From NCBI GenBank assembly GCA_023898465.1, contig CP060223.1, positions 256,001-320,000 of the forward strand: a stretch of 64,000 nt of DNA, read 5' to 3'. The position numbers were made by a program, and so were the translations under genes. Positions 9,524 to 44,690 of the stretch are shown piece after piece. Positions within the stretch are counted from its first letter, which is position 1. Every line of letters starts with the position of its first letter. This stretch comes from Candidatus Nomurabacteria bacterium. Its GTDB lineage: Bacteria; Patescibacteriota; Patescibacteriia; HK-STAS-PATE-3. Under the pieces are notes generated by a model that was given only the letters and a program-made list of their open reading frames with translations, was not told the DNA's origin and searched no databases.

Positions 9524-9598
9524 GGGTCCATAGCTCAATGGTAGAGCAACTGCCTTTTAAGCAGTGGGTTGGTGGTTCGAGCCCACCTGGACCCACCA
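9524..9598 (+). tRNA. tRNA-Lys (anticodon UUU), CCA encoded
   Basis: Cloverleaf read by eye: acceptor GGGTCCA/TGGACCC, anticodon stem ACTGC/GCAGT with loop CTTTTAA, T-loop GGTTCGAGCC, terminal ACCA. Confidence 0.85.
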
Positions 9599-9662
9599 GT
9601 CATATCGCGCTTTTTGCATACCCAAGAAGCGAGACCCAGCATAGCGTGGGTCTCGTGTGAGT

Positions 9663-10079
9663 TCAGACGCCTTTGCGGGCGTGGGGATTGTGGCGATAGA
9701 TCGCCATTCCCGGCTTTGCGGTACTGGGAACCTCGATCAGGATATCTCCGCTAGCACCGAAGACGTTTCGCGTCGTTGCCCCGAGGTCAACACGCAGGGT
9801 TGTCAGAGGCGCTGCTCCGAGCGGATCCCCGAGACAAATAATGTCTCGATCATGCAGCGTCACTCCTTGTTTGAGGCTGGCCGTATGCGTTCGTTGGAAC
9901 TGCACACTGCCGAGTACGCCAATCTTGATCCAGTCGGTCTGCGTAGCCGCTTGCGTCGACATAGTACCCCCATTCTTCCAGTGAAAGGCACGCACGGATC
10001 TCATCCTGAGAATGTGCAAATCTTGCCACGGAGTGTAGCGCTGTGGATTTTCTTTGTCAAGCAAAACGGACACACTCAA
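9663..10079 (-). CDS. Hypothetical protein (high-GC island, first gene after tRNA-Lys)
   Basis: 138 aa ORF on the opposite strand immediately downstream of the tRNA; about 58% GC; no family recognised. Confidence 0.4.
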   Translation of the reverse strand: MSVSVLLDKENPQRYTPWQDLHILRMRSVRAFHWKNGGTMSTQAATQTDWIKIGVLGSVQFQRTHTASLKQGVTLHDRDIICLGDPLGAAPLTTLRVDLGATTRNVFGASGDILIEVPSTAKPGMAIYRHNPHARKGV

Positions 10080-10100
10080 GTGAGGTGTCCGTAGTTGGGG

Positions 10101-10898
10101 TTAGTTGACGGAGGCGATCTCTTCATCAGGGATTGCGGCTATCAAGCGTCCGAGCGCCTTTTGCAGCGAAAGATTAGAGCGGGCTAAGCGTTCATCATAT
10201 CGGAAGAAGTGAAAGGGGATAGCAGAGGGGTCGGTCAACGCCATTTGTCCAAGCGCTCCAAGCTGCTGGAATACTGCCCCAAGATCGAGTTCGAGGTCGA
10301 ACAGGAGCTCCCAATCAATGCAAGATCGAAGCGCTTCCCAGGGTAGTGGCTCTTCCATGCAGCATGAGCGCCCGGCCAGCATTCTGACAAAGTGGCAGAG
10401 CCCAGGGTTGAAGAAGCTTTTTCTCCTTTGATCAGTCAGCAAGGTGCTTCTTGGGTCAAAGGGGTACACGGTGTCGTCCTCTCCCTGCATGAGCCATCCC
10501 TTGAGCAGCTCAAGATCAACCACGCTGGTGACCAAATCTTGGGTGGCGAGGGCCTTGCGATCAAAGCTCACGATGTCGCCCCAGGGGATCGGCAGACAGA
10601 TTGAGGCAACAAGTTCCACCCAAGCACCTAGTGTGTCTTGGCGATCCTCTGGGACAACCAAGAGAAAAGAATCAAGAGTTCTGGGAAGTGCCATAGCACC
10701 AAGGGCGGAGAGAAAGTTCCCGGCTTTTTTTCCTACAGCGTCGATGATGAGGCTTCGTATAGGCTCACCATCAGTATCTTCCAAGATGCTTTGAGAATCC
10801 TCAAGACTTGAGCAGACGGTGATGGTGTGGCAGTTGATCCGAGCTGCCAAATGGCGGGCTCGTTTCTGACTACCAGAAAAAACCAAGAGGTGTGCCAT
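10101..10898 (-). CDS. Hypothetical protein (high-GC island)
   Basis: 265 aa ORF contiguous with the previous gene; no recognisable motifs. Confidence 0.45.
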   Translation of the reverse strand: MAHLLVFSGSQKRARHLAARINCHTITVCSSLEDSQSILEDTDGEPIRSLIIDAVGKKAGNFLSALGAMALPRTLDSFLLVVPEDRQDTLGAWVELVASICLPIPWGDIVSFDRKALATQDLVTSVVDLELLKGWLMQGEDDTVYPFDPRSTLLTDQRRKSFFNPGLCHFVRMLAGRSCCMEEPLPWEALRSCIDWELLFDLELDLGAVFQQLGALGQMALTDPSAIPFHFFRYDERLARSNLSLQKALGRLIAAIPDEEIASVN

Positions 10899-10975
10899 AC
10901 TCAGACCTCCGTTGAGTTATGAAGGTGCTTCCTCCTATAGAGAAGTGTAGACGCATTGCGCATCTTCGACAATAC

Positions 10976-11003
10976 TTGACAACCCACTTCACAGGAGTAC
11001 ACT
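10976..11003 (+). promoter_or_regulatory. Sigma70-like promoter inside duplicated leader module (copy 1)
   Basis: TTGACA, 16-nt spacer, TACACT; the identical element recurs at 14573-14600. Confidence 0.5.
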
Positions 11004-11225
11004 AAATGCACAATTGGTGGCGATCTCTGCCTGGCACTGACCAGGTTGTCCGGAGACGCCATGTTTTTGTATGCGCGTGTTCTTCCTCCTTGCCGCAGGG
11101 TGTAGCTCGGCTCCGCTCGCTACCCATTTCTCGGCATCGGTCTCTTTGCGATGATCGAAACGAAGAGCGTCTTTTTCTACTCTCCTGCAGGGGCGGTGCG
11201 GGAGCGCGGAATAGTTCCGGGCTTC

Positions 11226-11243
11226 ATTTCCTCACATGAGGAA
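11226..11243 (+). promoter_or_regulatory. Conserved 8-bp inverted repeat TTTCCTCA-CA-TGAGGAAA in leader (copy 1): candidate operator or RNA hairpin
   Basis: Perfect 8+8 inverted repeat with 2-nt spacer; identical copy at 14730-14747 upstream of the paralogous lipoprotein gene. Confidence 0.45.
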
Positions 11244-11290
11244 AGCGGCTTTGTTGCCGTTTTGCACCTTGAAATGCATGGAGGTTCGCC

Positions 11291-12028
11291 ATGACTTGGC
11301 GTTTCCGACTCTTCCTGCTCATGGCCATCGCGTTGACCATGACACCCCTCGCTTTCATGACCGGCTGCCAGGAGCTGCCGACGGAGGGGGATTCACAGGA
11401 TCAAGTGGTTGAGAGTCCGGAAGCTCAACCCGGTCCAGCGATTCAGTCTACTGGGCCCGAATGGTATAATCAGGTCGTAAGTGAAGCAAAGTACACATTG
11501 TGCCAGCTTCGAAACGGCACATCGCATGAGGTCTATCAGGGTAAGGCTATGGGTGATTGGCCCTACCCACATCAAGGGGATTGTTGTAACGCCCTTGGTG
11601 TAGTCCGTCAATATATGTACGGTGGTGGCTCTCCAGGACCGCTTGGCGAATGGAATGGCTTCCAGCAAGGCGGTTGGTGCAAGTTCTTTGTCAACTTGGT
11701 GCTCTACCGCTCTAGCTATGGCTACCCGGGCGGACATTTGCTCTTGCCCACTTCTACGTATCGTTACAATAATCCACGCCCGGTTTCCGAAGCACAACCT
11801 GGATGGATCTTGCAGTCAGAAACACTACCTCATACTGCGATCGTAGTAGAACGACTAGGCGGTGGCTTGGATGTAATCGATTCAAACTGGATCGGAACTT
11901 ACAAGCGTCCGGACGGAAGTTATTACTACTCATATGCCATCGCAAGGCATGAAATCACAAATACGGAGTTGGATCGCTACGATTTCATGGCATATCGTCC
12001 GCATGAGGCGTGCGTGCTGCATAACTAG
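11291..12028 (+). CDS. Secreted lipoprotein with CHAP-domain peptidoglycan amidase/endopeptidase
   Basis: Signal peptide plus lipobox (LAFMTGC). CHAP catalytic Cys motif GGWCKFFV and His motif LPHTAIVVERLGGGLDVIDSNW. Confidence 0.7.
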   Translation: MTWRFRLFLLMAIALTMTPLAFMTGCQELPTEGDSQDQVVESPEAQPGPAIQSTGPEWYNQVVSEAKYTLCQLRNGTSHEVYQGKAMGDWPYPHQGDCCNALGVVRQYMYGGGSPGPLGEWNGFQQGGWCKFFVNLVLYRSSYGYPGGHLLLPTSTYRYNNPRPVSEAQPGWILQSETLPHTAIVVERLGGGLDVIDSNWIGTYKRPDGSYYYSYAIARHEITNTELDRYDFMAYRPHEACVLHN

Positions 12029-12101
12029 ATAGTGGGGGGTGCTGGAAAGTTTTTCAGTTCCCCCCACCTCCCACAAAGTCAATTATTTACTTCATAAGTA
12101 T

Positions 12102-12617
12102 ATGAAAAAAATCCAAATAGTCTTTCTCTTATTTTCAAGCATTGTTCTTGCGTCGGTGATTTTTTATTCCGGACATGCTATTTCATATAAAAATACAACC
12201 TACGGATATTCTTTTAGTACAATAAAAAAGTCTAATATTAAAGTTCTTGATCCAGCGCTTGTTCAAGTTTCAATTATAGGAGAAGAGGTTATTGAGGAGA
12301 GTCCAATAATAAACATATATGCTATTAAGTTGGAGCAAGATTCTTTGTCTGCAACCCAAGAACTTGAAACGTGGGTAGGGGAAGATCTTAATGGTTTCTC
12401 TGATATTAATATTCAGAGTACAACGACCGAAACAGAAAAAATAATTAACGTTACTTATACGGGAGGGGGGATGTCTGGAAGTATTAAATACGTCGGATTT
12501 TATGTTTTCAATCAGGAAGAAAAAACAATAATTAAGGTAGTAGCTTCTCAGTATAATGATAATATGGAATTGTTTGAGGCCTACAAAAAAATTCTTTCTT
12601 CCTTTCAGTTAATATAA
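12102..12617 (+). CDS. Hypothetical membrane-anchored protein (low-GC insert)
   Basis: Start taken at MKKIQIVFLLF (single N-terminal TM); about 33% GC against about 57% for the neighbours; no known domain. Confidence 0.45.
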   Translation: MKKIQIVFLLFSSIVLASVIFYSGHAISYKNTTYGYSFSTIKKSNIKVLDPALVQVSIIGEEVIEESPIINIYAIKLEQDSLSATQELETWVGEDLNGFSDINIQSTTTETEKIINVTYTGGGMSGSIKYVGFYVFNQEEKTIIKVVASQYNDNMELFEAYKKILSSFQLI

Positions 12618-13255
12618 TGACCACCACTCATCGTCTCCTCATATTACTCATTGTCGTAGTTGCCGCAGGCTTTCTCTATCTTGGATTAAGATCAGATTCC
12701 TCCGATGTAACAACGACGAACAAAACAGTCAACAAAGATTTCCGTGAACTTGAAATGCTCAGTTCAGCTGGTCACAAGGTGTTTCAATCAGAGAATTATG
12801 ATTTCACCTATACGATTGATCATGGTGTTGACTGGAGCGTTAGCGAGGCTGCAGAGCCGACTTTGCTCACCACTTGGTTTTCTTTACCAAATCCAAATAG
12901 TGAAGAGGAAGAAAGAGATGATATTCCGAATGGGTTTAATACCTTTGAAAAAAATAGTTTTCGACTTGATGTATATCCTAACTCAGGTTCAGTAAGTCCA
13001 AATGGAGAAGCGGAGCTAAAAGATTGGTTAAAAAATGATCTTAATAGTGAGTATATTCCTGGAAGCTTTTTAACCTTATCCATTGCAAGAAACCGTTTAT
13101 TCAAAGTAGTTGATTTTCAGGGGATTGATGTGCGAGAGGCGCATTATTATCTATTTGGCTCTGCATTTGTATATGTCTTTTCAAGCGGTGATTTCACTGA
13201 GCAAGAAATGCGCGAGTTTATTAGCGGTTTTACCTACGAAAGAGCGCCTTTATAA
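12617..13255 (+). CDS. Hypothetical membrane-anchored protein (low-GC insert)
   Basis: N-terminal TM LLILLIVVVAAGFLYLGL; overlaps the previous stop by 1 nt (co-transcribed); no known domain. Confidence 0.45.
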   Translation: MTTTHRLLILLIVVVAAGFLYLGLRSDSSDVTTTNKTVNKDFRELEMLSSAGHKVFQSENYDFTYTIDHGVDWSVSEAAEPTLLTTWFSLPNPNSEEEERDDIPNGFNTFEKNSFRLDVYPNSGSVSPNGEAELKDWLKNDLNSEYIPGSFLTLSIARNRLFKVVDFQGIDVREAHYYLFGSAFVYVFSSGDFTEQEMREFISGFTYERAPL

Positions 13256-13462
13256 GCGCTTCATCTCATCTTTATTTCTTTACTTGACGCATCTCAGTAG
13301 TCCGAGCATAATCATTTTTGGGTAGTAACCCACGTTTTGATAAGCAGGAGAAGTACGGTAGATTCGATGGATGCGCCATGCGCACCCCATCTGCGTTGGA
13401 TTGTCACACTGAACCTCGGGTCAGGATAGCACCCTGACAAATCTGGAAAGAAAGGAGGCGTC

Positions 13463-14470
13463 ATGAACCGCCTGTTTGTCGTACTCGCGCTGATCACCAT
13501 CGGGGCTCTGGGTTTTGTTGGCTGCGGCGGTAAGGACGCCGCTACGAAGCCGGAAGAAATCCGCAGTCCAGATCAGATCGTGCAGTCTGAGATTGTCTAT
13601 ACCGTGAACCCAGACTACTCAGGGGTGAATGTTTCGTGGAAAACAAACATCCCGACAGTTGGAAGGGTGTACTATGGTAGGACTCCTCAACCAACTGACT
13701 ACGTCATCGAGGAGGTGAGCACTACTCAACATTTGTTGTGTGCACCTCGACTCAGGGGAGATGCGCTCTTCTACTTCCAAGTGCAATCATCCTTTTCCGA
13801 GGAAGTGATTAGCGCTCGGGAACCGAGCGAAGGCGATACACTTCGCACCCCACGATGGGTTGATTGGTCTCCACCTACCGTAAGATGGGTCGATCCTCGA
13901 GAAGGCGCAATAAAGGGCGGGACGATTGATCTCACTGTTTCGGCAAACGAATACGTTGTCAACGGGGTGGTAGAGGTGAAATTCTTTATCGATGGCAGGG
14001 TCATCGCTGTAGTGACTGAACCCGATGACGGTGATAAGATCTTCGTCGTGCATGACTTCAATACTACCCAGCTCACCGATGGCTTGCATAGCTTTCACGC
14101 GTTGGCAACAGATGTAAACGGTAACAGAGAGTCAAGGGGAATTACGGTCGACATCGACAACTCGAAGCCGGTCATCTATCGATGGGATGCTCCGAGAAAT
14201 CAGCGGGAGATCGGGAATTCTATCAATTTGCGAGTGGTGGCTCAGGACTTTCGTGGTGAACACGTCGATGATGTGTACATCACCCTCGATGGTCAACCAT
14301 TTGCGAGGCTTGAGGTGTGTGAACTGCGAGCTAGCGGCGTAGGAGATGTGTGGTGTAGAGACGTTGATACGTCGACGCTGTCACCCGGTCAGCACTACTT
14401 CGGTGCCGTTTCAGTAGATCATGCTGGCAACGAGTCAGATCCGGTCTACATCGGCGTCATCAAGCAGTAG
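13463..14470 (+). CDS. Secreted lipoprotein with tandem Ig-like (Big/FN3-like) domains
   Basis: Lipobox LGFVGCGG; repeated beta-rich segments ending in DNSKPVI and VDHAGNESDPVYIGV, typical of bacterial Ig-like domains. Own promoter TTGACG-17-CATAAT at about 13287-13315 and RBS AAGGAGG. Confidence 0.6.
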   Translation: MNRLFVVLALITIGALGFVGCGGKDAATKPEEIRSPDQIVQSEIVYTVNPDYSGVNVSWKTNIPTVGRVYYGRTPQPTDYVIEEVSTTQHLLCAPRLRGDALFYFQVQSSFSEEVISAREPSEGDTLRTPRWVDWSPPTVRWVDPREGAIKGGTIDLTVSANEYVVNGVVEVKFFIDGRVIAVVTEPDDGDKIFVVHDFNTTQLTDGLHSFHALATDVNGNRESRGITVDIDNSKPVIYRWDAPRNQREIGNSINLRVVAQDFRGEHVDDVYITLDGQPFARLEVCELRASGVGDVWCRDVDTSTLSPGQHYFGAVSVDHAGNESDPVYIGVIKQ

Positions 14471-14572
14471 CCTTTCCAGTCCGTCAGGAATCCAACAGAG
14501 CCTGGGATCATCGATCTCGGGCTCTTCTCTTTTTGATACGCTCCAGAATGAAAAAGTGAAGTTTACTATTAC

Positions 14573-14600
14573 TTGACAACCCACTTCACAGGAGTACACT
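14573..14600 (+). promoter_or_regulatory. Sigma70-like promoter inside duplicated leader module (copy 2)
   Basis: Identical TTGACA-16-TACACT as at 10976-11003. Confidence 0.5.
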
Positions 14601-14793
14601 AAATGCACAATTGGTGGCGATCTCTGCCTGGCACTGACCAGGATGTCTGGAGACGCCATGTTTTTGTATAGGCGTATTCCACCCTCCCTTGCCGTGGCGT
14701 TGGGGAGCGCGGAATAGTTCCGGGCTTCATTTCCTCACATGAGGAAAGCGGCTTTGTTGCCGTTTTGCACTTTGAAATGCATGGAGGTTCGCC

Positions 14794-15492
14794 ATGACTT
14801 GGCGTTTCCGACTCTTCCTGCTCATGGCCATCGCGTTGACCATGACACCCCTCGCTTTCATGACCGGCTGTCAGGAGCTGCCGACGGAGGGGGAGACTTC
14901 GGTGATCTCTGATGAGTTGCCGGATGCTTCACCCTCAGCTCAGTCAAGCCCGATGACTTGGCCCTCTTCGATCCAGGATTTCAAACTCCCTTATGATGGG
15001 ATCCGGGATGCATGCGGGGGTCAGATTTGGAAGGTTGTTTGCGGGTACGGATGTGGTTATCATCACAACACAAACTACATGGCCGCCGCGTACCATTCGA
15101 TTGATCTTGTACGGCAGGATGCGCCGACCACTCATAGCGCAGTACTCGCTCCGGCGCGTGGCATCGTTTCGTTTGTCGGATGGAGGAATGGGTACGGTTG
15201 GTGCGTGGAGATGGATCATCGAAACGGCTGGAAGTCGCTTGTGGCCCATCTCGAAACGGATCCTTGGGAATTCGTCCATACCTATGACGACCTGCGGCAG
15301 GGGACTTTCCTGGGCTATGCAGGGAACAGCGGAGCGAGTACGACACCCCACATTCACTTCTCGGTGTGGCGGAACAACGTCACTCATACGCTCGATGGCG
15401 TATCGTTGATCAACCCGCGTCTAAATGGGCGATACAATTCCGGCAATGATTATGTTGCGCCACCGACGGGAAATCCGAACCCGATTCCTTAA
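14794..15492 (+). CDS. Secreted lipoprotein with M23 (LytM) family metallopeptidase domain
   Basis: N-terminal 33 aa are identical to the CHAP lipoprotein (MTWRFRLFLLMAIALTMTPLAFMTGCQELPTEG). M23 motifs HSIDL (HxxxD) and GNSGASTTPHIHFSV (HxH). Confidence 0.75.
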   Translation: MTWRFRLFLLMAIALTMTPLAFMTGCQELPTEGETSVISDELPDASPSAQSSPMTWPSSIQDFKLPYDGIRDACGGQIWKVVCGYGCGYHHNTNYMAAAYHSIDLVRQDAPTTHSAVLAPARGIVSFVGWRNGYGWCVEMDHRNGWKSLVAHLETDPWEFVHTYDDLRQGTFLGYAGNSGASTTPHIHFSVWRNNVTHTLDGVSLINPRLNGRYNSGNDYVAPPTGNPNPIP

Positions 15493-15668
15493 CACGATAG
15501 CGGAGAAGGTTTTTCATTAGAAAGCCTTCTCCGCTGTCTCTCCTCTCTATGAATAGTCATGTTGCTATTCTTTCTGTTAGCGATCACCATCCTTTTAGTT
15601 GATTTAGGATTAAAACTATAATTACGTTATTCTGGAGCATTTTCTCATAATATCGTAATCTTACTACT

Positions 15669-16682
15669 ATGAATCGTTTTTCTATCTTCATCGCAGTGTT
15701 CGTTCTTATCAGCGCAGTGGTTTATGCTTTCTTTTTTGCTACATTATTTGGGGAAAAGAAAGCTATTGAAGGAGTGCAGGGACCTGCTTTTATGTTTGCA
15801 ACCCTGCCTGACTCAGATGCATCTGCCGCGATAAGCATTTTTGAGATTCCTACAATGTCGAAGCGAAAGGCTGAAGACACATCTTTGCCAATGCATTTTC
15901 TTAAAAAACTAGGAGATCCGAGAGAGTATTTTGATCCCATACTTTCTTCAAGTGGTGCATATTTGGCTTTTAATCGTAATATTGGGGAGCCGAAACAGGA
16001 TAAGACAAATTTAGTAATACTTGCAGCTGACGGAAAAGAAAGGAGCGTGGAGAGCGGCTCTGCTGGAGATATAGGAATAGGAATGCTCACGCCCTTGCAG
16101 TGGAGTGCTGATGAAAAAACGCTCTACGCTTTTTATACACACGCAACTGAAGGTAATATCGTAGGCCTGGTGGCAATTGATGTGGCAACTTTAAGCCAAC
16201 AACGAATTGAAAAAATTGATGATCTACGTGTAAGTAACTACGTCTTTGATGAAGTCGGAAATACCTACGGTTTTGAACCGCACTATCGATTCCGCCCTGA
16301 AGACGAGGCTCAAACAACCTTTTATCGAATTTCTTTGACTAGTGGCGAAACAAAAAGCTTTACACTCCAGCAATCGAGTTTGGACGATCTCTTGACCGTA
16401 GATCCAAGCGGGAGATACCTCGTGTACGCAAACGGAGATGATTTTAATTCTCGTAACATTTGGATGTATGACATGGAAACCGGTGAGGAGCGCGCGTTGA
16501 CTGAAAATGCTGTTGTTAATGAAATTTTGCCCTGGAAAGATGGATATTTGGTATTTCTGGAGGAAAGTGTAAACACCCCCGCAGAAAAAACACTTGTATC
16601 ATACGATGTAAATTCTGGCATTCGCAAAGTTCTTTTAGAAAATGTTACAGGGACGTTCCGGCTTCTTGGTTGGTATCCCTAA
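15669..16682 (+). CDS. Membrane-anchored TolB-like beta-propeller (PD40/WD40-like repeat) protein
   Basis: N-terminal TM; repeated D-x-S/D-G-x-x-LxF motifs (DPSGRYLVYANGDD, SADEKTLYAF) typical of PD40 propeller blades. Confidence 0.5.
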   Translation: MNRFSIFIAVFVLISAVVYAFFFATLFGEKKAIEGVQGPAFMFATLPDSDASAAISIFEIPTMSKRKAEDTSLPMHFLKKLGDPREYFDPILSSSGAYLAFNRNIGEPKQDKTNLVILAADGKERSVESGSAGDIGIGMLTPLQWSADEKTLYAFYTHATEGNIVGLVAIDVATLSQQRIEKIDDLRVSNYVFDEVGNTYGFEPHYRFRPEDEAQTTFYRISLTSGETKSFTLQQSSLDDLLTVDPSGRYLVYANGDDFNSRNIWMYDMETGEERALTENAVVNEILPWKDGYLVFLEESVNTPAEKTLVSYDVNSGIRKVLLENVTGTFRLLGWYP

Positions 16683-16940
16683 TTTCATATATCAGTTGGG
16701 AGGTTTTTATTAAACCTTGCCCCTCCCCTTAAAAAGTGGTATAGTCATTGAGCTATTCTGAATATCTCAATATTCTAGCAACCGCGTGAAAATGTCAGCA
16801 AAAACAGACATCGCGGAGGGGGAAATCACTCAAGAGCAGCACATACTCTTGTATACTCAAGCGTCCCTAGTAAAAAGGGATGTTTTTTGTGTGCAAAGTA
16901 GCCTCGTAGCTGCCACAAGTTCTGAAAGGAGCGAAGGCGC

Positions 16941-17600
16941 ATGTTAGGTTATCTTTTGCTCATTATATCGGTTGTAGAGTTTTTTATTGGCCTGTACCTT
17001 ATTTTTCGCTATGAAAAAAGCCAGGCAACAACATATTACGGTCTCTTTGCAATAAGTGTTGCGATCTATGTTGCCGCGAACGGTTTCGGATTTACCCGAG
17101 CTTCTGATAACGAGTTTATTTTTGAGCAACTTGCTTGGTTTGGCGGCTTACTTAGCGCCCCATTTATCCTTGGCTTCAGTTATAGCTTTCCTAGCCCTAA
17201 AAAATATCCCACTGAGCTATTTCCGTGGGTAATTTGGCCAGTAGTGTTATTTGGCGCAGGAATTTTTACTTCAAATATTTTCCTGGAGAAAACGTATATT
17301 TATTCCTTTGCCGAAGGCTACACTGCGCCAATCGGTGTCTTTTTCTGGTTCGCCATTGCAGTATTTGCGATGTATTGGATATGGGCAATACGAAACCTGC
17401 TGTATACGAGATTGCACACAAGCGGTTTTTATAGGAATTTTCTTACCATTGTGCTCATAGGGCTTTTTTCATCACTGCTTATTTCAGCAATTTTTGATAT
17501 TTACATTCCCTTAGTTTCAGTCACGCGCTACGGATATATTGGAGCATTATTCTCGTCTATTTGGCTGTTTACTACCGCGTATTTAATGGTGAGGAAGTAA
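16941..17600 (+). CDS. Stand-alone histidine-kinase N-terminal 7TM sensor-domain paralog 1 (HisKA_7TM-like)
   Basis: 219 aa, 6-7 TM. Alignable to the N-terminus of the HK at 22990: RY.KS.AT.YYGLFA...LAWFGG...PFILGFSYSFP.PKK versus R.ENTSSRLFGATV...FLLFSWYFPKK. Ends exactly where the kinase linker would begin. Confidence 0.65.
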   Translation: MLGYLLLIISVVEFFIGLYLIFRYEKSQATTYYGLFAISVAIYVAANGFGFTRASDNEFIFEQLAWFGGLLSAPFILGFSYSFPSPKKYPTELFPWVIWPVVLFGAGIFTSNIFLEKTYIYSFAEGYTAPIGVFFWFAIAVFAMYWIWAIRNLLYTRLHTSGFYRNFLTIVLIGLFSSLLISAIFDIYIPLVSVTRYGYIGALFSSIWLFTTAYLMVRK

Positions 17601-17601
17601 G

Positions 17602-18261
17602 ATGATTGGATATATATTACTCATTATCTCAGTTGTTGAAGTAATACTCGGTTTTTATTTGATTTTTCGATATGTAAAAAGTCCAGCAACTATATATTAC
17701 GGCCTATTCGCGCTAAGTGTAGCACTCTATGTAGGTGCAAACGGGTATGGTTTTAGTCCGTTTTCAGAAAATGATATATGGCTGGAAATAATTGCCTGGA
17801 TTGGCGGGACCTTTACCGCTCCTTTTATTCTTGGCTTCAGTTACTCATTCCCTTATCCACGTAAGTCCAATAAGGAAATACTGTCTTTAGTTCTTAGTCC
17901 ACTCGTTTTTTTCTTCGTCGTAATACTTTTTTCTAATACTTTTGTAGATCATAATAGTGTTATCAGCTTTGATGAAGGATTTCAAAGACCTGTCGGGGAG
18001 TTACACTGGTTTGTATTATCAGTATTCTTTTTCTATTGGGTTTGGTCTTTTATTGAACTAGTAAAGAGTCGAAAAAAATCCGACGGCTTTAATAAGAATT
18101 TTCTTCTTATTTTAATTATAGGCTTAGTTTTTTCTTTGTTGGTTTCGGTATTTACTAACATCATTCATCCACTTGTCGATGTTTCAAAGTTAGGTTATAT
18201 GGGCCCCTTAGCCTCTTCAATCTGGCTATTTATTACTGGGTACTTGATATTGAGGAAGTAA
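17602..18261 (+). CDS. 7TM sensor-domain paralog 2
   Basis: About 50% identical to paralog 1; 1-nt intergenic gap. Confidence 0.65.
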   Translation: MIGYILLIISVVEVILGFYLIFRYVKSPATIYYGLFALSVALYVGANGYGFSPFSENDIWLEIIAWIGGTFTAPFILGFSYSFPYPRKSNKEILSLVLSPLVFFFVVILFSNTFVDHNSVISFDEGFQRPVGELHWFVLSVFFFYWVWSFIELVKSRKKSDGFNKNFLLILIIGLVFSLLVSVFTNIIHPLVDVSKLGYMGPLASSIWLFITGYLILRK

Positions 18262-18932
18262 TGAACACCTTTCATTTAGTTTTACTTTTTACACTTTTCT
18301 TTATTCACGCGACTCTCGCAATATGGATGTTGCGTAGATATGTGCAGACGCTATCCATTCGTTATTACTCAGGCTTTTTATTTGGACTAGCACTTATTGC
18401 ACTATTAAATGGTTTATTGCTGTTATTTGGCGGTCAGGAGAGTCAAACAGTCCTTCATAAGATCGGCTTTATCTCAGGCACCTTCACTTTTGTGATGTTC
18501 TTTATGTTTAGTAAGTACTTTCCAATTTCTACTGCAAGACCAAACTCCCGCGACATTCTTTTTTGGGTAATTCCGATTACATTTTTTATTCCATTCATAC
18601 TTTTTAATCAGCAGTTTATCCAGTCTGTGATTATAGAAAATGGAATAAGTAAGCCTACATTTGGAGTCTGGTATACACCATTTATGTTAGTTTTGGCCAC
18701 CTTTGTTCTGGGGGCTATCTATAATCTCATACAGAAATATAAAATAACCACTGAACTTGAAATTAGGAAGAACATTAGAGACATTACGGCAGTATTTTTC
18801 GTATCAGGACTCCTTGGCTTTTTGTTGGACGTTGTGTTGCCAAGGTTTAATGTTTATACGGCACATTACTTTGCCATTGAATCTTCACTTTTTGTTGCGC
18901 TAACTACTGCAATTATTATTGCAAAGAAGTAA
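18261..18932 (+). CDS. 7TM sensor-domain paralog 3
   Basis: Same length class and topology; overlaps the previous stop. Confidence 0.6.
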   Translation: MNTFHLVLLFTLFFIHATLAIWMLRRYVQTLSIRYYSGFLFGLALIALLNGLLLLFGGQESQTVLHKIGFISGTFTFVMFFMFSKYFPISTARPNSRDILFWVIPITFFIPFILFNQQFIQSVIIENGISKPTFGVWYTPFMLVLATFVLGAIYNLIQKYKITTELEIRKNIRDITAVFFVSGLLGFLLDVVLPRFNVYTAHYFAIESSLFVALTTAIIIAKK

Positions 18933-18933
18933 G

Positions 18934-27045: not shown

Positions 27046-29721
27046 ATGACAGGGGGGCAAACCTGGCACAAATACAGCACAAAAGACACAATACAAAAAC
27101 TGCGGGGGAGCCGACAGGGTCTTCGTTCTAAGCAAGCGCAGCAACGGCTCAAGCAGTACGGACCAAATGTGTTACCCGCGGCAGCTGGACGTACCGCGCT
27201 GCAAATTTGGGGTAGGCAATTTGCCAGTCCATTGATGTTGTTATTGATCGCGGCAGCTGGAGTGAGCTTTGCCCTGCGCGATACCATCGATGCACAAGTA
27301 ATTCTCGCCGCAGTTGTTTTAAATGTGGTGGTAGGATTTATCCAGGAGTATCGAGCCGAACGTACTTTGGAATCTTTGCGCAAGGTGGTTACTTTTGATG
27401 CGCTGGTGTTGCGCGATGGAGTAGAGCGGAGCGTGGCGGCGCAGGATATTGTGCCCGGTGATGTTTTGGTAGTGCGGGCCGGGATGCGAGTGGTGGCTGA
27501 TGCGCGTCTTCTCGAAGTAAATGATTTGCAGGTAAATGAAGCAAGTCTCACCGGTGAAAGCACGCCAGTAGAGAAAATACATAGTGCCCTCGACGGACAT
27601 TTGGGTTTAGGCGACCAGCACAACATGCTTTTTAACGGAACAACGGTTATTGCCGGTTCAGGTCAGGCAATAGTCGTAGCGACCGGCACCTCGACCGAGT
27701 TCGGTCAAATTGCTCAAACCGTGCAGAATGTAAAAGAGGATGCGACACCCTGGCAGCAGCGTTTGCAACGATTTAGCCGTTTTATTACCCTGGTCGTCCT
27801 GGGCGTTGCGGCAGCAATTTTCATATTAGGTGCTTTTACTGGCCGTTCCTTGCCTGAAATGTTTGCTGTGTCGGTAGCCATCGCTGTTGCCGCAATTCCG
27901 GAGGGTTTGGCTATTGGGGTAACTGTGGTGCTGGTGATTGGCATGCGACGTATTTTGCAGCAGCAAGCGCTGACTCGACAGCTGGTCGCCGTGGAAACGC
28001 TCGGTGCAATCAGTGTGCTGTGCTTTGATAAGACAGGCACGGTGACTGAAGGCAACATGGCTGTAGTGCGCGTGGTAACCGAAAACCATGATCTGCACGC
28101 CTCCTCCGACGAGCTGCACGCGCATAGTAAAGATGTGGCTTCAACCAAGAGCACTGTCCGACTTTTCAAAATCGCTCTGCTCTGCAATGACGCGCATATT
28201 GAAAATGAAGATAAAGCGCTGGAGCATCGCCTGGTCACGGGTAATCCCACTGAGCGCGCGCTCGTAAATGCAGCCCACGCTCTAGGATTGACTCGACATG
28301 CCCTCGAATCTGACGCGCCTCGAGTCGCCAGCATACCCTTTAGCTCAAATCGTAAATTCATGCTAACCGTGCATCATGATGCGCAAGGCGATGTGGCCTA
28401 TGCAAAAGGCGCGCCAGAGGTAATTTTACAGGCCACGCATGCTATAGATTTGGATGGGAAGGAAGTAAAGATACACAATGATCGTCGTCGTGAGCTTCTC
28501 CAACGCGCTGAGACTTTGAGTCGCGAAGGCCTCCGCGTCCTCGCTTTTGCCTATGCACGCTTGCCTGATCATAAGAATGACGAGCCAAGTGCGCTGCCGC
28601 AACTCACCTTTGTCGGATTTGCCGGCTTAAAAGATCCACTCCGCGCTGAGGCAAAAACAGCTGTGCAGGCGCTCCAACACGCTGGCATTCACGCTGCCAT
28701 GATTACCGGTGATCACAAATTTACTGCTCAGGCAATTGCGAAAGAGTTAGGCTTACCCATTGCGGCAAAACACATCCTAACTGGCCAGGACCTAGAGCGA
28801 CTCAGCGATGCGGACCTGCAAAAGAAAATTCGCGGCATCCATGTGTACGCTCGCGTGTCGGCAAAAGACAAGATACGCATTGTAAAAGCCTGGAAAGCCT
28901 TAGGCGAGGTGGTGGCTATGACCGGCGATGGTATCAACGACGCCGCAGCCTTGAAAGCAGCTGACGTTGGCATTGGTTTAGGGTCAGGTACTGAGGTAGC
29001 CAAAGAAGCTGCTAAGGTAATTCTGCTCAACGATAATATTCAAACGATTGAGTCAGCAGTGGAGCAGGGGAGGATAATTTTTGAAAATATTAAAAAGGTG
29101 ACGCTGTATTTACTTTCCGATGCCTTTTCCGCAGTTATTTTAGTCGCACTCAGTTTACTTGGCGGTTTACCACTGGCGCTTTCAGCTGCGCAGATACTCT
29201 GGATAAACCTTGTTACCGACGGCCTGCCAAACATGGCCCTGACTATTGAGCCAAAGGAGCGTAATGTGATGGCAGAAAAACCGCGTCCACGCAGCGAGCC
29301 ACTGCTTGATCAGACCGGTAAAATCTTTGTCGCCAGTATCAGTGCAGTTACGGGCGTGTTGTCTTTCATACTCTTCTTCATTGTGTTGCGGGAAAGTGGC
29401 AATGAAATTCTGGCTCGCTCGGTTGCCTATGCCGCCTTAGGCACTACGACTTTGCTATACGCCTTTAGCCTGCGTCATATCCGACAAGGCTTATTTAGTG
29501 GTAATCCATTTCAGAATCGTTGGCTCAATCTCGCGGTCGGTGTTGGACTCATTCTCCAAATCGGCGTGTTGTATTGGGCTCCTTTGCAGCATTTCCTTGG
29601 CACAACTGCGATTGACTGGACGCATTGGAAGTTAATTTTTGTTATGAATATCACGGTCTTGCTCTTTATTGAAGCGTTGAAGCTTTTTGTCCACAGTGGA
29701 AAGAAAAAGGCAGCTGCGTAG
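27046..29721 (+). CDS. P-type ATPase, type II cation (Ca2+/Mg2+-like) transporter
   Basis: DKTGTVT phosphorylation site, TGDHKFTA and GDGINDAAALK motifs, about 10 TM; 891 aa. Confidence 0.88.
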   Translation: MTGGQTWHKYSTKDTIQKLRGSRQGLRSKQAQQRLKQYGPNVLPAAAGRTALQIWGRQFASPLMLLLIAAAGVSFALRDTIDAQVILAAVVLNVVVGFIQEYRAERTLESLRKVVTFDALVLRDGVERSVAAQDIVPGDVLVVRAGMRVVADARLLEVNDLQVNEASLTGESTPVEKIHSALDGHLGLGDQHNMLFNGTTVIAGSGQAIVVATGTSTEFGQIAQTVQNVKEDATPWQQRLQRFSRFITLVVLGVAAAIFILGAFTGRSLPEMFAVSVAIAVAAIPEGLAIGVTVVLVIGMRRILQQQALTRQLVAVETLGAISVLCFDKTGTVTEGNMAVVRVVTENHDLHASSDELHAHSKDVASTKSTVRLFKIALLCNDAHIENEDKALEHRLVTGNPTERALVNAAHALGLTRHALESDAPRVASIPFSSNRKFMLTVHHDAQGDVAYAKGAPEVILQATHAIDLDGKEVKIHNDRRRELLQRAETLSREGLRVLAFAYARLPDHKNDEPSALPQLTFVGFAGLKDPLRAEAKTAVQALQHAGIHAAMITGDHKFTAQAIAKELGLPIAAKHILTGQDLERLSDADLQKKIRGIHVYARVSAKDKIRIVKAWKALGEVVAMTGDGINDAAALKAADVGIGLGSGTEVAKEAAKVILLNDNIQTIESAVEQGRIIFENIKKVTLYLLSDAFSAVILVALSLLGGLPLALSAAQILWINLVTDGLPNMALTIEPKERNVMAEKPRPRSEPLLDQTGKIFVASISAVTGVLSFILFFIVLRESGNEILARSVAYAALGTTTLLYAFSLRHIRQGLFSGNPFQNRWLNLAVGVGLILQIGVLYWAPLQHFLGTTAIDWTHWKLIFVMNITVLLFIEALKLFVHSGKKKAAA

Positions 29722-37381: not shown

Positions 37382-37456
37382 GGCCCTATCGTCTAGTGGC
37401 TAGGACGCATGGTTCTCATCCATGTAACAGGGGTTCGATTCCCCTTAGGGCTACCA
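37382..37456 (+). tRNA. tRNA-Glu (anticodon CUC), CCA encoded
   Basis: Strong similarity to canonical tRNA-Glu (TCGTCTAGTGGCTAGGAC D-arm; anticodon loop TTCTCAT; T-arm GGGGTTCGATTCCCC; acceptor GGCCCTA/TAGGGCT with G1-U72). Confidence 0.85.
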
Positions 37457-43194: not shown

Positions 43195-43195
43195 T

Positions 43196-44686: not shown

Positions 44687-44690
44687 ACCT

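What the first reader, a model, noticed from the sequence alone, without database searches (positions are those of the whole stretch)
9599..15540. High-GC secreted-lipoprotein island directly downstream of tRNA-Lys
Immediately after tRNA-Lys(UUU), GC rises from about 50% to about 57-60%. The island encodes two opposite-strand hypothetical proteins and then three lipoproteins (CHAP, Ig-like repeat, M23), each with a lipobox. tRNA-Lys 3' ends are classic integration sites. No integrase or direct repeat of the tRNA 3' end was seen in the window, so either this is an old, degraded island or the boundary lies elsewhere.
Basis: partly seen in the sequence, partly recalled or inferred. Interest (0 to 1): 0.55.

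Follow-up and report, generated by a model that had tools for sequence, protein, structure and literature searches.

The report
Wall-hydrolase signalling locus, not tRNA island
The stretch after tRNA-Lys is not a high-GC mobile island; it is the front end of a roughly 16-kb, fast-evolving gene cluster of a Patescibacteria (CPR) bacterium that pairs surface-anchored cell-wall-cutting enzymes with a membrane sensor-kinase system, and it is only moderately unusual.

Summary
The lipobox proteins are an NlpC/P60-CHAP-fold hydrolase that Pfam does not detect, a Big_7 Ig-like protein and an M23 peptidase.

The "57-60% GC island" is not real. The region averages 49.5% GC and is a mosaic of 53% / 37% / 53%. 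The GC3 of the "high-GC" genes lies within +0.6 to +1.9 sd of backbone genes. The true compositional outliers are the low-GC blocks at 12.0-13.3 and 15.6-23.8 kb.

There is no integrase and no repeat of the tRNA 3' end.

In five relatives a P-type ATPase gene lies 22-759 nt from tRNA-Lys; here 17.4 kb lies between them. So this gap gains genes. However, 15540 is not a boundary. M23, h337, a 7TM gene array, FeeM, ThiF, the histidine kinase and the response regulator are colinear in another CPR contig. The NlpC/P60-like family lies within 10 kb of such a kinase cluster in 5 of its 8 contexts examined.

Verdict: an ordinary variable locus containing new members of known enzyme superfamilies. The interesting lead is a conserved low-GC cassette of synthase plus sensor domain.

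The parts
9524..9598 (+). tRNA-Lys(UUU). It is the left anchor of the variable gap.
   Evidence: ARAGORN and Rfam, 75 bits. It is 74/75 identical to the tRNA in L003, but its orientation relative to dnaB differs among relatives.
9630..9655 (.). Hairpin of 9 bp (cgagaccca/tgggtctcg) between the tRNA and the convergent minus-strand ORF. Possibly a bidirectional terminator.
   Evidence: Read directly from the sequence. Not tested further.
9663..10079 (-). ORF of 138 aa (99 aa from the ATG at 9962). No homologue was found, and its coding status is uncertain.
   Evidence: ORF list. Logan called a 99-aa gene here. No Pfam or PHROG hit. A TTGACA-17-TACACT promoter-like site lies at 10060-10032. A 145-aa ORF overlaps it on the + strand.
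10101..10898 (-). The 265-aa protein 'h265'. It has a receiver (REC)-like N-terminal domain and an unknown helical C-terminal domain, and it is transcribed divergently from the first hydrolase gene.
10973..11391 (+). Repeat R1. It contains a sigma-70-like promoter (TTGACA-16-TACACT, 10976-11003), a leader of about 285 nt, a ribosome-binding site, and the first 101 nt of coding sequence (the signal peptide through CQELPTEG).
   Evidence: The leader folds at -117 kcal/mol, z -2.7, and its 5' end pairs with the RBS/AUG region.
11291..12028 (+). Lipoprotein with a divergent NlpC/P60-CHAP-superfamily cysteine peptidase domain.
12102..13255 (+). Two low-GC genes (171 aa and 212 aa) encoding proteins with an N-terminal membrane anchor. 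Function unknown.
   Evidence: GC 0.32 and 0.39; GC3 0.27 and 0.32, z about -3. No Pfam or PHROG hit. The independent Logan contig L088 runs continuously through the flanking genes and these two.
13463..14470 (+). Ig-like lipoprotein of 335 aa (Big_7, with a weak Big_13 match). It has its own promoter-like site at 13284-13312.
   Evidence: Pfam Big_7 5e-10. Lipobox GFVGC. Promoter scan.
14497..14525 (+). Intrinsic-terminator-like hairpin (13 bp followed by a T-run) that ends the Ig gene.
14570..14894 (+). Repeat R2. It has the same promoter, leader (about 190 nt; 94 nt of R1 are absent) and signal peptide as R1.
   Evidence: There are 14 mismatches plus one 94-nt indel against R1. The last 195 nt have only 2 mismatches. 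The leader folds at -84 kcal/mol, z -4.4.
14794..15492 (+). M23 metallopeptidase lipoprotein. Its first 33 residues are identical to those of the NlpC/P60-like protein.
   Evidence: Pfam PF01551 2e-18. Closest relatives are 51-53% identical. The gene is colinear with its downstream genes in L089.
15496..15538 (+). Inverted repeat with 18-nt arms just after the M23 stop codon, probably a terminator.
   Evidence: repeat I10.
15669..16682 (+). Membrane-anchored 337-aa protein 'h337', with low GC. It is conserved next to the M23 gene in L089 (45% identical).
16941..20959 (+). Six tandem stand-alone 7TM ORFs, paralogues of the kinase's sensor domain. One of them has a HisKA_7TM Pfam match.
   Evidence: Pfam HisKA_7TM for the first copy; the two other copies scanned did not match it. 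Direct repeats D3-D5 link copies 1-3. All six ORFs except 18919-19605 have tblastn homologues in the 7TM arrays of L089, L100 or L101.
20967..23021 (+). Three enzyme genes with very low GC3 (0.22-0.33): a FeeM/LuxI-like N-acyl amino acid synthase, a methyltransferase and a ThiF-family enzyme.
   Evidence: Pfam. GC3 and GC adjusted for amino-acid composition, z -3 to -5.3.
22990..26216 (+). Histidine kinase with 7TM, GAF, HisKA and HATPase domains (931 aa), followed by a single-domain response regulator (25782-26216). GC switches inside the kinase gene at the end of the 7TM domain.
   Evidence: Pfam. Domain-wise identity and GC.
27046..29721 (+). P-type cation ATPase gene. It is the right anchor of conserved synteny and lies beside tRNA-Lys in five relatives.
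   Evidence: Pfam and synteny.

Best explanation
The interval 9599-15540 is not a self-contained element integrated at a tRNA. It is the upstream arm of a mosaic locus of about 16 kb (roughly 10.1-26.2 kb) that fills a gene-gaining gap between tRNA-Lys and a P-type ATPase gene in a Patescibacteria genome (MAG labelled 'Candidatus Nomurabacteria', locus tags H6760_01255/01260).

SHOWN
- The locus encodes two membrane-anchored peptidoglycan hydrolases of different mechanism. One is a cysteine peptidase with an NlpC/P60-CHAP fold and the other is an M23 metallopeptidase. An Ig-like lipoprotein and several membrane-anchored proteins of unknown function accompany them.
- Downstream lie an array of stand-alone 7TM sensor paralogues, small-molecule enzymes (FeeM/LuxI-like, methyltransferase, ThiF), a 7TM-GAF histidine kinase and a single-domain response regulator.
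- A protein with a receiver-like domain (h265) is transcribed divergently from the first hydrolase gene.
- The two hydrolase genes share a nearly identical 5' module: promoter, structured leader and lipoprotein signal peptide.

INFERRED
- The shared module arose by duplication or gene conversion. It makes the two enzymes co-regulated and anchored in the same way, so that they cut two different bonds of the same cell wall. That wall could be the bacterium's own during growth, or a host's during episymbiosis.
- Their expression may be an output of the adjacent kinase system.
- The alternation of GC is not a mark of one foreign insert. Conserved modules (the hydrolases, the kinase core, the response regulator) sit at or slightly above host GC3. 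Hypervariable modules (partner proteins, sensor copies, signal enzymes, the kinase's sensor domain) are AT-rich in every genome that carries the locus.
- The locus probably reached or expanded in this gap by ordinary recombination or rearrangement, not through a tRNA-targeting integrase.
For: COMPOSITION
- The GC of the 'high-GC' genes is within the backbone range.
- The hydrolase genes have GC3 at or above that of housekeeping genes in all five genomes examined, and the core cassette has GC3 0.22-0.38 in all five.
- Re-coding the genes with backbone codon usage shows that amino-acid content explains most of their odd tetranucleotide signature.

SYNTENY
- The gap between tRNA-Lys and the ATPase gene ranges from 22 nt to 17.4 kb across relatives.
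- h265 homologues lie at the same place in L003.
- L089 is colinear from M23 to the response regulator, at 33-53% amino-acid identity.
- Counting the window, L085, L100, L101 and L102, the NlpC/P60-like gene lies within 10 kb of a cluster of 7TM array, enzymes and kinase in 5 of its 8 contexts. L089 adds a sixth example through its M23 homologue.

NO MOBILITY SIGNATURE
-.

ENZYME IDENTITIES
-.

REPEAT
-.
- The independent Logan contigs L001 and L088 each end 30 nt (k-1) inside R1 and R2, and L088 spans the GC switches.
- L086, another genome, shows the same kind of homogenised 5' end: a 300-nt, 100% identical repeat in front of tandem NlpC/P60-like paralogues.

REGULATOR
- h265 has a receiver-like fold.
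Against: - The block starts right at the tRNA's 3' end.
- It is absent from this position in all 80 loci anchored on DnaB.
- Several of its genes are nearly ORFans.
- Tetranucleotide usage is atypical (z down to -8). After amino-acid content is removed, these genes still lack the extra genome signature that backbone genes carry (z +0.8 to -1.5, against +2.8 +/- 0.7 in controls). Foreign or recently moved DNA is therefore not excluded.
- The taxonomic positions of L085, L089 and L100-L102 are unknown, so the 'conserved cluster' could itself move between genomes as a unit.
- The flanks of the closest relatives are short: 4.7 kb in L003 and 8.8 kb in L004.
- Any regulatory link between the kinase system and the hydrolases rests on gene neighbourhood alone.
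- The h265 structure model has low confidence.
Confidence: 0.62

Rival explanations
1. An old, degraded genomic island spanning 9599-15540 integrated at the 3' end of tRNA-Lys and later lost its integrase and its attR site.
For: - The region sits immediately 3' of the tRNA.
- It is absent at this locus in relatives.
- Its tetranucleotide signature is atypical.
- Its genes are nearly ORFans.
Against: - There is no integrase and no tRNA-derived repeat.
- GC and GC3 are within the backbone range.
- 15540 is only a terminator; composition and synteny both continue to about 26 kb.
- The h265 family lies at the same site in L003, where the variable DNA is on the tRNA's 5' side.
Confidence: 0.08
2. 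The whole block of 16-17 kb (hydrolases through response regulator) is a mobile or translocated unit that landed in the gap between tRNA-Lys and the ATPase gene. That would be an island with different boundaries and an unknown, integrase-independent mechanism.
For: - The cluster sits in different neighbourhoods elsewhere: SSB upstream in L085, L100 and L101; PGK-Eno downstream in L085 and L102; Pyr_redox downstream in L089 and L100.
- A Y1 transposase lies next to it in L102, and an IS30-type transposase lies in the L004 gap.
- The gap is empty in five relatives.
Against: - In L009 and L010 a 7TM kinase already lies next to the ATPase gene at this locus, so at least the kinase end looks resident.
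- h265 homologues lie at this site in L003.
- The window has no mobility gene and no terminal repeats.
Confidence: 0.2
3. Antagonistic effector-immunity modules. The hydrolases are toxins aimed at neighbouring or host cells, and the AT-rich membrane-anchored genes just downstream (12102-13255 and 15669-16682) encode the matching immunity proteins.
For: - In 7 of the 8 contexts examined, an anchored or secreted protein gene follows the NlpC/P60-like gene. These partner genes are non-homologous and lower in GC. In L102 the gene that follows was not characterised.
Against: - The hydrolases carry lipoprotein signal peptides, so they stay tethered to the producer.
- No secretion-system or toxin-delivery domains are present.
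- The partner proteins are unrelated to each other even though the enzymes are about 50% identical.
- No match to a known immunity family was obtained.
Confidence: 0.1
4. A prophage remnant or lysis cassette.
For: The M23 domain matches phage endolysin and tail PHROG families. NlpC/P60 and CHAP folds are common in endolysins.
Against: - There are no phage structural, holin or integrase genes in the 9.6-16.7 kb proteins scanned against PHROGs.
- The NlpC/P60-like protein has no tblastn hit in 50,697 phage records.
- Only one distant hit (29% identical) was found in IMG/VR.
- Both enzymes have lipoprotein signal peptides.
Confidence: 0.02
5. An assembly artefact: a chimeric MAG, or collapsed strain variants stitched together at the repeat.
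For: The sequence comes from a MAG. A repeat of more than 300 nt and sharp GC switches are typical sites of misassembly. The Logan contigs break at both repeats.
Against: - The independent contig L088 crosses both GC switches (53% to 37% to 52%) without a break.
- R1 and R2 differ by 14 substitutions and a 94-nt indel, so they are distinguishable copies.
- The same GC mosaic recurs in five other genomes.
Confidence: 0.04

Closest known systems
tRNA-linked genomic islands (integrase-mediated pathogenicity or fitness islands and ICEs)
   Same: The block sits beside a tRNA gene, is missing from related genomes at that site, and carries surface and secreted functions.
   Different: It has no tyrosine or serine recombinase and no duplicated tRNA 3' end. 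Its GC is not anomalous. It is continuous with a conserved downstream cluster, and in the closest relatives the variable DNA lies on the tRNA's 5' side.
NlpC/P60 and CHAP peptidoglycan hydrolases (for example C. difficile Acd24020 7cfl, E. faecium SagA 6b8c, E. coli MepS 7v6s, LysGH15 CHAP 4olk)
   Different: Sequence identity is only 8-18%, and there is no Pfam or PDB match at the sequence level. The family is small (about 37 members). It has an extra N-terminal subdomain of about 70 residues (57-127) and a lipoprotein anchor.
LytM/lysostaphin-type M23 metallopeptidases
   Same: It matches Pfam PF01551, and the HxH motif (H186, H188) and D141-H142 are conserved.
   Different: It belongs to a small subfamily with a Cys-rich 'CGYGCGYH' insert. 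It is lipoprotein-anchored, and its 5' end is shared with a non-homologous enzyme.
Variable lipoprotein gene families of Mollicutes, such as Vlp and Vsa. From my own knowledge; not tested here.
   Same: A highly conserved promoter, 5' UTR and prolipoprotein signal peptide are joined to divergent mature regions.
   Different: There are only two copies here. The mature parts are enzymes of unrelated folds, not repetitive antigens. No phase-variation tract or invertible element was seen.
The Staphylococcus agr locus, a quorum-sensing operon with a hypervariable segment agrB-agrD-agrC(sensor). From my own knowledge.
   Same: Signal-making enzymes and the receptor's membrane sensor domain form one hypervariable block next to a conserved kinase core and response regulator. 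Identity is 18-29% in the sensor against 45-88% in the core.
   Different: The proteins are entirely different: FeeM/LuxI-like, ThiF, HDC or aminotransferase enzymes, and a 7TM HisKA_7TM sensor. Extra stand-alone sensor paralogues are present. No signal molecule is known.

Membership tests
Integrase-mediated tRNA-inserted genomic island | The element adjoins the 3' end of a tRNA gene. | tested here: met
   The tRNA ends at 9598 and the first ORF ends at 9663. In L003 and L004, however, the variable DNA lies on the tRNA's 5' side.
Integrase-mediated tRNA-inserted genomic island | A site-specific recombinase (integrase) gene lies at one end. | tested here: not met
   No recombinase domain was found in the ORFs scanned from 9.6 to 27 kb: Pfam, and PHROGs for 9.6-16.7 kb.
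Integrase-mediated tRNA-inserted genomic island | A direct repeat of the tRNA 3' end (attR) marks the far boundary. | tested here: not met
   No match with up to 3 mismatches to 23-nt or 33-nt probes. blastn-short found only a 14-mer, on the opposite strand, at 42879.
Integrase-mediated tRNA-inserted genomic island | Base composition differs from that of the host backbone. | tested here: inconclusive
   GC, GC3 and GC adjusted for amino-acid composition are within range for the 'high-GC' genes. The tetranucleotide signature is atypical, and amino-acid content explains most but not all of this.
Integrase-mediated tRNA-inserted genomic island | The element is absent from the same site in related genomes. 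| tested here: inconclusive
   The lipoprotein genes are absent from all 80 DnaB-anchored loci. But h265 homologues are present at the site in L003, and a 7TM kinase is present at the site in L009 and L010.
NlpC/P60-CHAP (papain-like, clan CA) peptidoglycan hydrolases | A papain-like alpha+beta fold. | tested here: met
NlpC/P60-CHAP (papain-like, clan CA) peptidoglycan hydrolases | A conserved catalytic Cys, then His, then a third polar residue. | tested here: met
   C130, H181, D197, N199 and H220 are invariant in 31 sequences. Which residue completes the triad was not resolved.
NlpC/P60-CHAP (papain-like, clan CA) peptidoglycan hydrolases | A match to the Pfam CHAP (PF05257) or NLPC_P60 (PF00877) model. 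| tested here: not met
   No Pfam family at E <= 0.1. A profile of the family finds no PDB sequence. Membership therefore holds at the level of superfamily and fold only; 'CHAP' as such is not established.
NlpC/P60-CHAP (papain-like, clan CA) peptidoglycan hydrolases | Hydrolysis of peptidoglycan stem-peptide or amide bonds. | not testable with these tools
   Needs an enzyme assay.
Peptidase M23 (LytM/lysostaphin type) | A Pfam PF01551 match above the gathering score. | tested here: met
   66.8 bits against a cut-off of 28.7.
Peptidase M23 (LytM/lysostaphin type) | The zinc-binding motifs HxxxD and HxH. | tested here: inconclusive
   HxH is present (H186-I-H188) and D141-H142 are invariant. 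The first motif reads H-S-I-D (HxxD) in this subfamily, not HxxxD. This is from reading the alignment.
Bacterial lipoproteins (Lgt/LspA pathway) | An N-terminal signal peptide ending in a lipobox Cys. | tested here: met
   A PS51257-type pattern is present in the NlpC/P60-like, M23 and Ig-like proteins, and in 21 of 31 members of the NlpC/P60-like family.
Bacterial lipoproteins (Lgt/LspA pathway) | The genome encodes Lgt and LspA. | not tested
   Only 64 kb of the genome was available, and it was not scanned for these genes.
Two-component response regulators (for h265) | A receiver fold with a phospho-acceptor Asp at the end of beta-3. | tested here: inconclusive
Cis-regulatory leader RNA or riboswitch (for the R1/R2 leaders) | A match to a described RNA family, or conserved structure with covariation. 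| tested here: not met
   No Rfam hit even at E <= 10. No shared sequence or structure upstream of six homologous genes. No other copy in JGI metagenomes. The only support is thermodynamic stability, z -2.7 and -4.4.
Quorum-sensing-type synthase and receptor cassette (for 16.9-23.7 kb) | A signal-synthase homologue is encoded next to its receptor kinase, and the variable block covers the synthase plus the sensor domain. | tested here: met
   FeeM/Autoind_synth Pfam hits. The enzyme set varies between loci while the kinase stays 44-47% identical. Sensor identity is 18-29% against 45-88% for the core.
Quorum-sensing-type synthase and receptor cassette (for 16.9-23.7 kb) | A diffusible signal is produced and is sensed by the kinase. 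| not testable with these tools
   Needs chemistry and genetics.

The most novel reading that the evidence does not exclude
The hydrolase genes are the output arm of a previously undescribed family of CPR cell-cell or host-sensing systems. In these systems a swappable AT-rich 'specificity cassette' sits between conserved surface peptidoglycan hydrolases and a conserved kinase core and response regulator. The cassette holds stand-alone 7TM sensor paralogues, a variable small-molecule synthase set (FeeM/LuxI-like plus ThiF, pyruvoyl histidine decarboxylase, or aminotransferase plus epimerase) and the 7TM sensor domain of the kinase. It would be exchanged between genomes by recombination inside the kinase gene, as happens with agr specificity groups. 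The duplicated promoter-leader-signal-peptide module would be the shared regulatory handle through which the system switches on two complementary wall-cutting enzymes.
Probability: 0.2. Interest if true: 0.7.

Novelty: new member of a known kind. Interest (0 to 1): 0.35.

Why it matters
As posed, the finding is mostly a correction. A small GC rise next to a tRNA was over-read as an island, and the real compositional outliers are AT-rich.

Three things are worth keeping:
1. A small family of NlpC/P60-fold wall hydrolases that Pfam does not detect. All family members with a source label come from Patescibacteria MAGs. These organisms are thought to live attached to hosts, so surface wall-cutting enzymes are candidates for attachment, feeding or division.
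2. Two enzymes of unrelated folds that share one nearly identical promoter, leader and lipoprotein signal peptide. This is a clear example of recombination reusing a 5' module.
3. The repeated linkage of these hydrolases to a 7TM kinase locus. The synthase and sensor part of that locus is AT-rich and hypervariable in genomes whose backbone GC ranges from 44% to 63%. If this is a signalling specificity cassette, communication and host sensing in CPR bacteria could be tested directly.

Tried and rejected
- tRNA-derived att repeat. Probes of 33 nt and 23 nt with up to 3 mismatches, blastn-short and shared k-mers found nothing.
- Known RNA family in the repeated leaders. Rfam at gathering threshold and at E <= 10 found nothing.
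- A leader conserved across homologous loci. blastn against all fetched loci and RNAalifold on 8 upstream regions gave no similarity and 0 predicted pairs.
- More copies of the leader in JGI metagenomes. A 24-nt exact probe gave 0 hits.
- Metagenome scan with the kinase as query. It returned only distant kinases at 24-31% identity, which were not informative.
- Phage or plasmid origin. tblastn of the NlpC/P60-like protein against phages gave no match. blastn of the whole interval against plasmids gave no match. PHROGs matched only the generic M23 domain. One distant IMG/VR hit (L099, 29% identical) was not followed up.
- Sequence-level assignment of the 'CHAP' gene. Pfam and a family profile against PDB sequences found nothing. 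Only the fold search worked.
- Codon-usage likelihood against the backbone. The backbone's codon bias is too weak for this to discriminate; all locus genes scored z -0.1 to -2.5.
- Exact-sequence look-ups of the NlpC/P60-like and M23 proteins were not on record.
- h265 homologues in the other hydrolase and kinase loci. An HMM built from the four known members found none.
- Orthology between the Ig-like lipoprotein and the Ig-like surface protein in the L006 gap. BLASTP gave E 0.086. The two share a similar architecture only.
- Homology among the downstream 'partner' proteins. Only three pairs are related; there is no universal partner family.

Full report
1. ORGANISM AND ANCHORS

The window comes from a Patescibacteria (CPR) MAG. 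Exact protein matches carry the NCBI names 'hypothetical protein H6760_01255/01260 [Candidatus Nomurabacteria bacterium]' and lie on a contig of 1,082,586 bp. DnaB (7437-8786, minus strand) is 82% and 80% identical to the DnaB of two MAGs (L003, L004) and 61-72% identical to that of other Patescibacteria. tRNA-Lys(UUU) lies at 9524-9598 on the + strand. Just upstream is a DEDDh exonuclease gene of the dnaQ type.

2. CHECKING THE OBSERVATION

Composition.
- The interval 9599-15540 averages 49.5% GC. The upstream backbone is 48.2% and the rest of the backbone about 49%.
- The interval is a mosaic. 9599-12030 is 53.3%, 12031-13300 is 36.6% and 13301-15540 is 52.7%. A long low-GC stretch follows: 15541-23800 at 35.5%.
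- Only one 300-nt window (9650-9949) reaches 58%.
- Backbone stretches of the same length also reach 53%.

Codon-level measures.
- GC3 of the four 'high-GC' genes is 0.54-0.62. The 45 backbone genes average 0.506 +/- 0.061, with a maximum of 0.63.
- Given each protein's amino-acid content and backbone codon usage, the observed GC exceeds expectation by +0.008 to +0.042, z 0.4-1.9.
- The low-GC genes fall 0.05-0.11 below expectation, z -2.2 to -5.3.
- The claimed rise to 57-60% is therefore not there, and the real outliers are AT-rich.

Tetranucleotide usage.
- It is atypical without a break from about 9.6 to 23.8 kb. Correlation with the backbone is 0.20-0.65, against 0.76 +/- 0.06 for backbone windows.
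- For the hydrolase and Ig genes, most of the drop is reproduced by synthetic genes that encode the same proteins with backbone codons (r 0.21-0.42).
- These genes still lack the extra signature that native backbone genes show over such synthetic versions: z +0.8 to -1.5, against +2.8 +/- 0.7. Mild atypicality therefore remains.

Gene content.
- The two minus-strand ORFs exist.
- The three proteins have PS51257-type lipoboxes.
- The Ig-like protein matches Big_7 and the last protein matches Peptidase_M23.
- The 'CHAP' protein has no Pfam hit at E <= 0.1 and no sequence-level match in the PDB, even with a family profile.
- C130, H181, D197, N199 and H220 are invariant.
- The call is therefore right at the superfamily level. 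The family itself is small, about 37 proteins among 5.8 billion.

- Two AT-rich genes for membrane-anchored proteins lie between the hydrolase and the Ig gene (12102-12617 and 12617-13255).
- A direct repeat is present: R1 at 10973-11391 (419 nt) and R2 at 14570-14894 (325 nt). They differ by 14 mismatches and one 94-nt indel, and only 2 of the mismatches fall in the last 195 nt.
- Each copy holds a TTGACA-16-TACACT promoter-like site, a leader of 285 or 190 nt, the ribosome-binding site, and the first 33 codons.
- As a result the NlpC/P60-like and M23 proteins have an identical signal peptide and lipobox (MTWRFRLFLLMAIALTMTPLAFMTGCQELPTEG).
- The leaders fold more stably than shuffled controls (z -2.7 and -4.4). 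The 5' end pairs with the RBS/AUG region.

3. IS IT A tRNA-INTEGRATED ISLAND?

- No recombinase, transposase or phage gene was found in the proteins scanned between 9.6 and 27 kb. Three of the six 7TM ORFs and some small ORFs were not scanned.
- No repeat of the tRNA 3' end occurs anywhere in the 64 kb.
- There is no similarity to phage or plasmid records.
- The interval's right edge at 15540 is only the hairpin after the M23 stop codon (repeat I10).

4. SYNTENY

Eighty loci anchored on DnaB were fetched.
- On the dnaB side, gene order is conserved throughout (recR, ybaB, rplU, mraY-like, secY and others).
- On the other side, five genomes (L005, L007, L008, L012, L013) have the P-type ATPase gene (window 27046-29721) 22-759 nt from tRNA-Lys.
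- L006 has 2.4 kb there, including an Ig-like surface protein.
- L009 and L010 have 5-5.6 kb there, including a 7TM histidine kinase next to the ATPase gene together with small-molecule enzymes.
- The window has 17.4 kb.
- The closest relatives differ again. L003 carries a cupin gene, two tandem h265-like genes and an anchored protein gene. L004 carries an M23-FlgD_ig protein, an anchored protein, an IS30-type transposase and metabolic genes.

The gap is therefore a hotspot of gene turnover, and in each genome it is filled mainly with surface or secreted proteins or a sensor kinase. The tRNA's orientation flips among these genomes. In L003 and L004 the variable DNA lies on its 5' side.

The 265-aa protein is almost an ORFan, with one relative in 1.84 billion representatives. 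The two L003 proteins align with it end to end, at pairwise E 3.5e-5 and 0.004, and they share N- and C-terminal motifs. This gene therefore looks resident at the site.

5. THE INTERVAL IS ONE ARM OF A LARGER CONSERVED LOCUS

The closest M23 homologue (P0040, 53% identical) lies on contig L089. The gene order there is: M23-Por_Secre_tail, M23, an h337 homologue (45%), a 472-aa protein, two 7TM genes, FeeM/LuxI-like (33%), ThiF (34%), the 7TM-GAF kinase (45%) and the response regulator (38%). This order is colinear with window 14.8-26.2 kb.

The NlpC/P60-like family was examined in eight contexts, counting the window. In five of them (window, L085, L100, L101, L102) it lies within 10 kb of a cluster made up of:
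- 1-6 stand-alone 7TM paralogues;
- one to three enzymes that differ between loci (a pyruvoyl HDC in L100; an aminotransferase plus an epimerase in L101; ThiF plus a 505-aa protein in L102; a 267-aa protein plus a methyltransferase in L085);
- a kinase of 912-958 aa that is 44-47% identical where it was compared (L085, L100, L101; L102 was not aligned).

A single-domain response regulator follows in L085 and L100 as well as in the window and L089; none was seen in the stretches fetched for L101 and L102. L089 adds a sixth example of the linkage through its M23 homologue. L083, L086 and L090 lack the kinase cluster within 10 kb.

The GC mosaic is also conserved.
- The hydrolase genes have GC3 at or above that of housekeeping genes: 0.54-0.62 against 0.50 here, 0.81 against 0.68 in L089, 0.71 against 0.67-0.75 in L100, 0.78 against 0.69-0.76 in L101, and 0.63 against 0.37-0.52 in L085.
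- The last 7TM copies, the enzymes and the first 240 codons or so of the kinase have GC3 0.22-0.38 in all five genomes.
- GC jumps inside the kinase gene at the end of the 7TM domain.
- Kinase identity is 18-29% over residues 1-170 and 45-88% in the core.

The slight GC excess of the hydrolase genes and the AT-richness of their neighbours are thus properties of the modules wherever they occur. They are not the mark of one foreign insert in this genome.

6. MECHANISM

Shown:
- two lipoprotein-anchored wall hydrolases of different catalytic type;
- a shared, nearly identical 5' module;
- a downstream sensor-kinase system.

Inferred:
- The 5' module spread by duplication or gene conversion. The identity gradient and the 94-nt indel fit a conversion tract. 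L086 shows the same thing in another genome, a 300-nt, 100% identical 5' repeat between tandem paralogues.
- The module gives both enzymes the same transcriptional and translational control and the same membrane tether. They would then act together on two bonds of one cell wall.
- The direct repeats should also allow deletion or amplification of the 3.2 kb between them.
- Control by the kinase, the response regulator or h265 is suggested by gene neighbourhood alone.

7. ASSEMBLY CHECK

Logan contigs from SRR12358676 reproduce the sequence. L001 ends 30 nt (k-1) into R1. L088 runs from inside the NlpC/P60-like gene, through both AT-rich genes and the Ig gene, and by its length appears to end about 30 nt into R2. 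The GC switches and the repeat are therefore seen in an independent assembly, although the order of segments across the repeats could not be verified here.

8. VERDICT

The GC claim is wrong.

What is present is a lineage-specific, mosaic locus of wall hydrolases and a 7TM kinase, containing new members of known enzyme superfamilies. The most novel lead is the conserved AT-rich synthase-plus-sensor cassette and its linkage to the hydrolases. It lies largely outside the given coordinates and remains a hypothesis.

Noticed in passing
window 16941-23740; also L085 3156-6011, L089 5682-9243, L100 12231-16455, L101 12669-18292, L102 2102-about 6900: An array of 1-6 stand-alone 7TM paralogues of the kinase's sensor domain is followed by enzymes that differ between loci (FeeM plus ThiF, with or without a methyltransferase; HDC; aminotransferase plus epimerase), and then by the kinase. 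Where GC3 was computed (the window, L085, L089, L100, L101), the last sensor copies, the enzymes and the first 240 or so kinase codons have GC3 0.22-0.38 whatever the backbone value (0.38-0.75), and GC switches inside the kinase gene. This resembles an agr-type specificity cassette.
   Followed up: partly
window 39667-45392: A second AT-rich, compositionally atypical block (GC3 0.33-0.35) starts 2.2 kb downstream of tRNA-Glu(CUC) at 37382-37456. It encodes an SNF2-family helicase (1175 aa), a DUF2779 protein (514 aa) and an unknown 233-aa protein. It could be a defence-type island.
   Followed up: partly
window 10060-10032 (-), 10976-11003 (+), 14573-14600 (+): The same hexamer pair, TTGACA and TACACT, appears in three promoter-like sites: in front of the 138-aa ORF and in both repeat copies.
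   Followed up: no
L086 7599-7898 and 9846-10145: In another CPR genome, tandem NlpC/P60-like paralogues (P0034 and P0022) share a 300-nt, 100% identical upstream-plus-5'-coding repeat, and their first 85 or so residues are identical. Each is followed by a paralogous protein of about 400 aa (59% identical). Homogenisation of the 5' end recurs in this family.
   Followed up: partly
L003 4737-4811, L004 8834-8908, L009, L010, L012, L013, compared with the window, L005-L008 and L011: The orthologous tRNA-Lys gene (74/75 identical between the window and L003) has opposite orientations relative to dnaB in different relatives. Its flanks are not conserved.
   Followed up: partly
L083, L085, L090, L100, L101: An SSB gene lies within a few kb of the NlpC/P60-like gene in five other genomes. 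The window has no SSB. This suggests the locus sits in a different chromosomal neighbourhood in this genome.
   Followed up: no
window 12029-12075: An 8-bp G/C stem (GTGGGGGG...CCCCCCAC) with a loop of about 20 nt lies exactly where GC drops from about 51% to about 32% after the NlpC/P60-like stop codon. No T-run follows it.
   Followed up: no
L099 (IMG/VR UViG_3300025764_000010) 8001-8570: A contig classed as viral encodes a distant relative (29% identical) of the NlpC/P60-like family. Its gene content was not examined.
   Followed up: no
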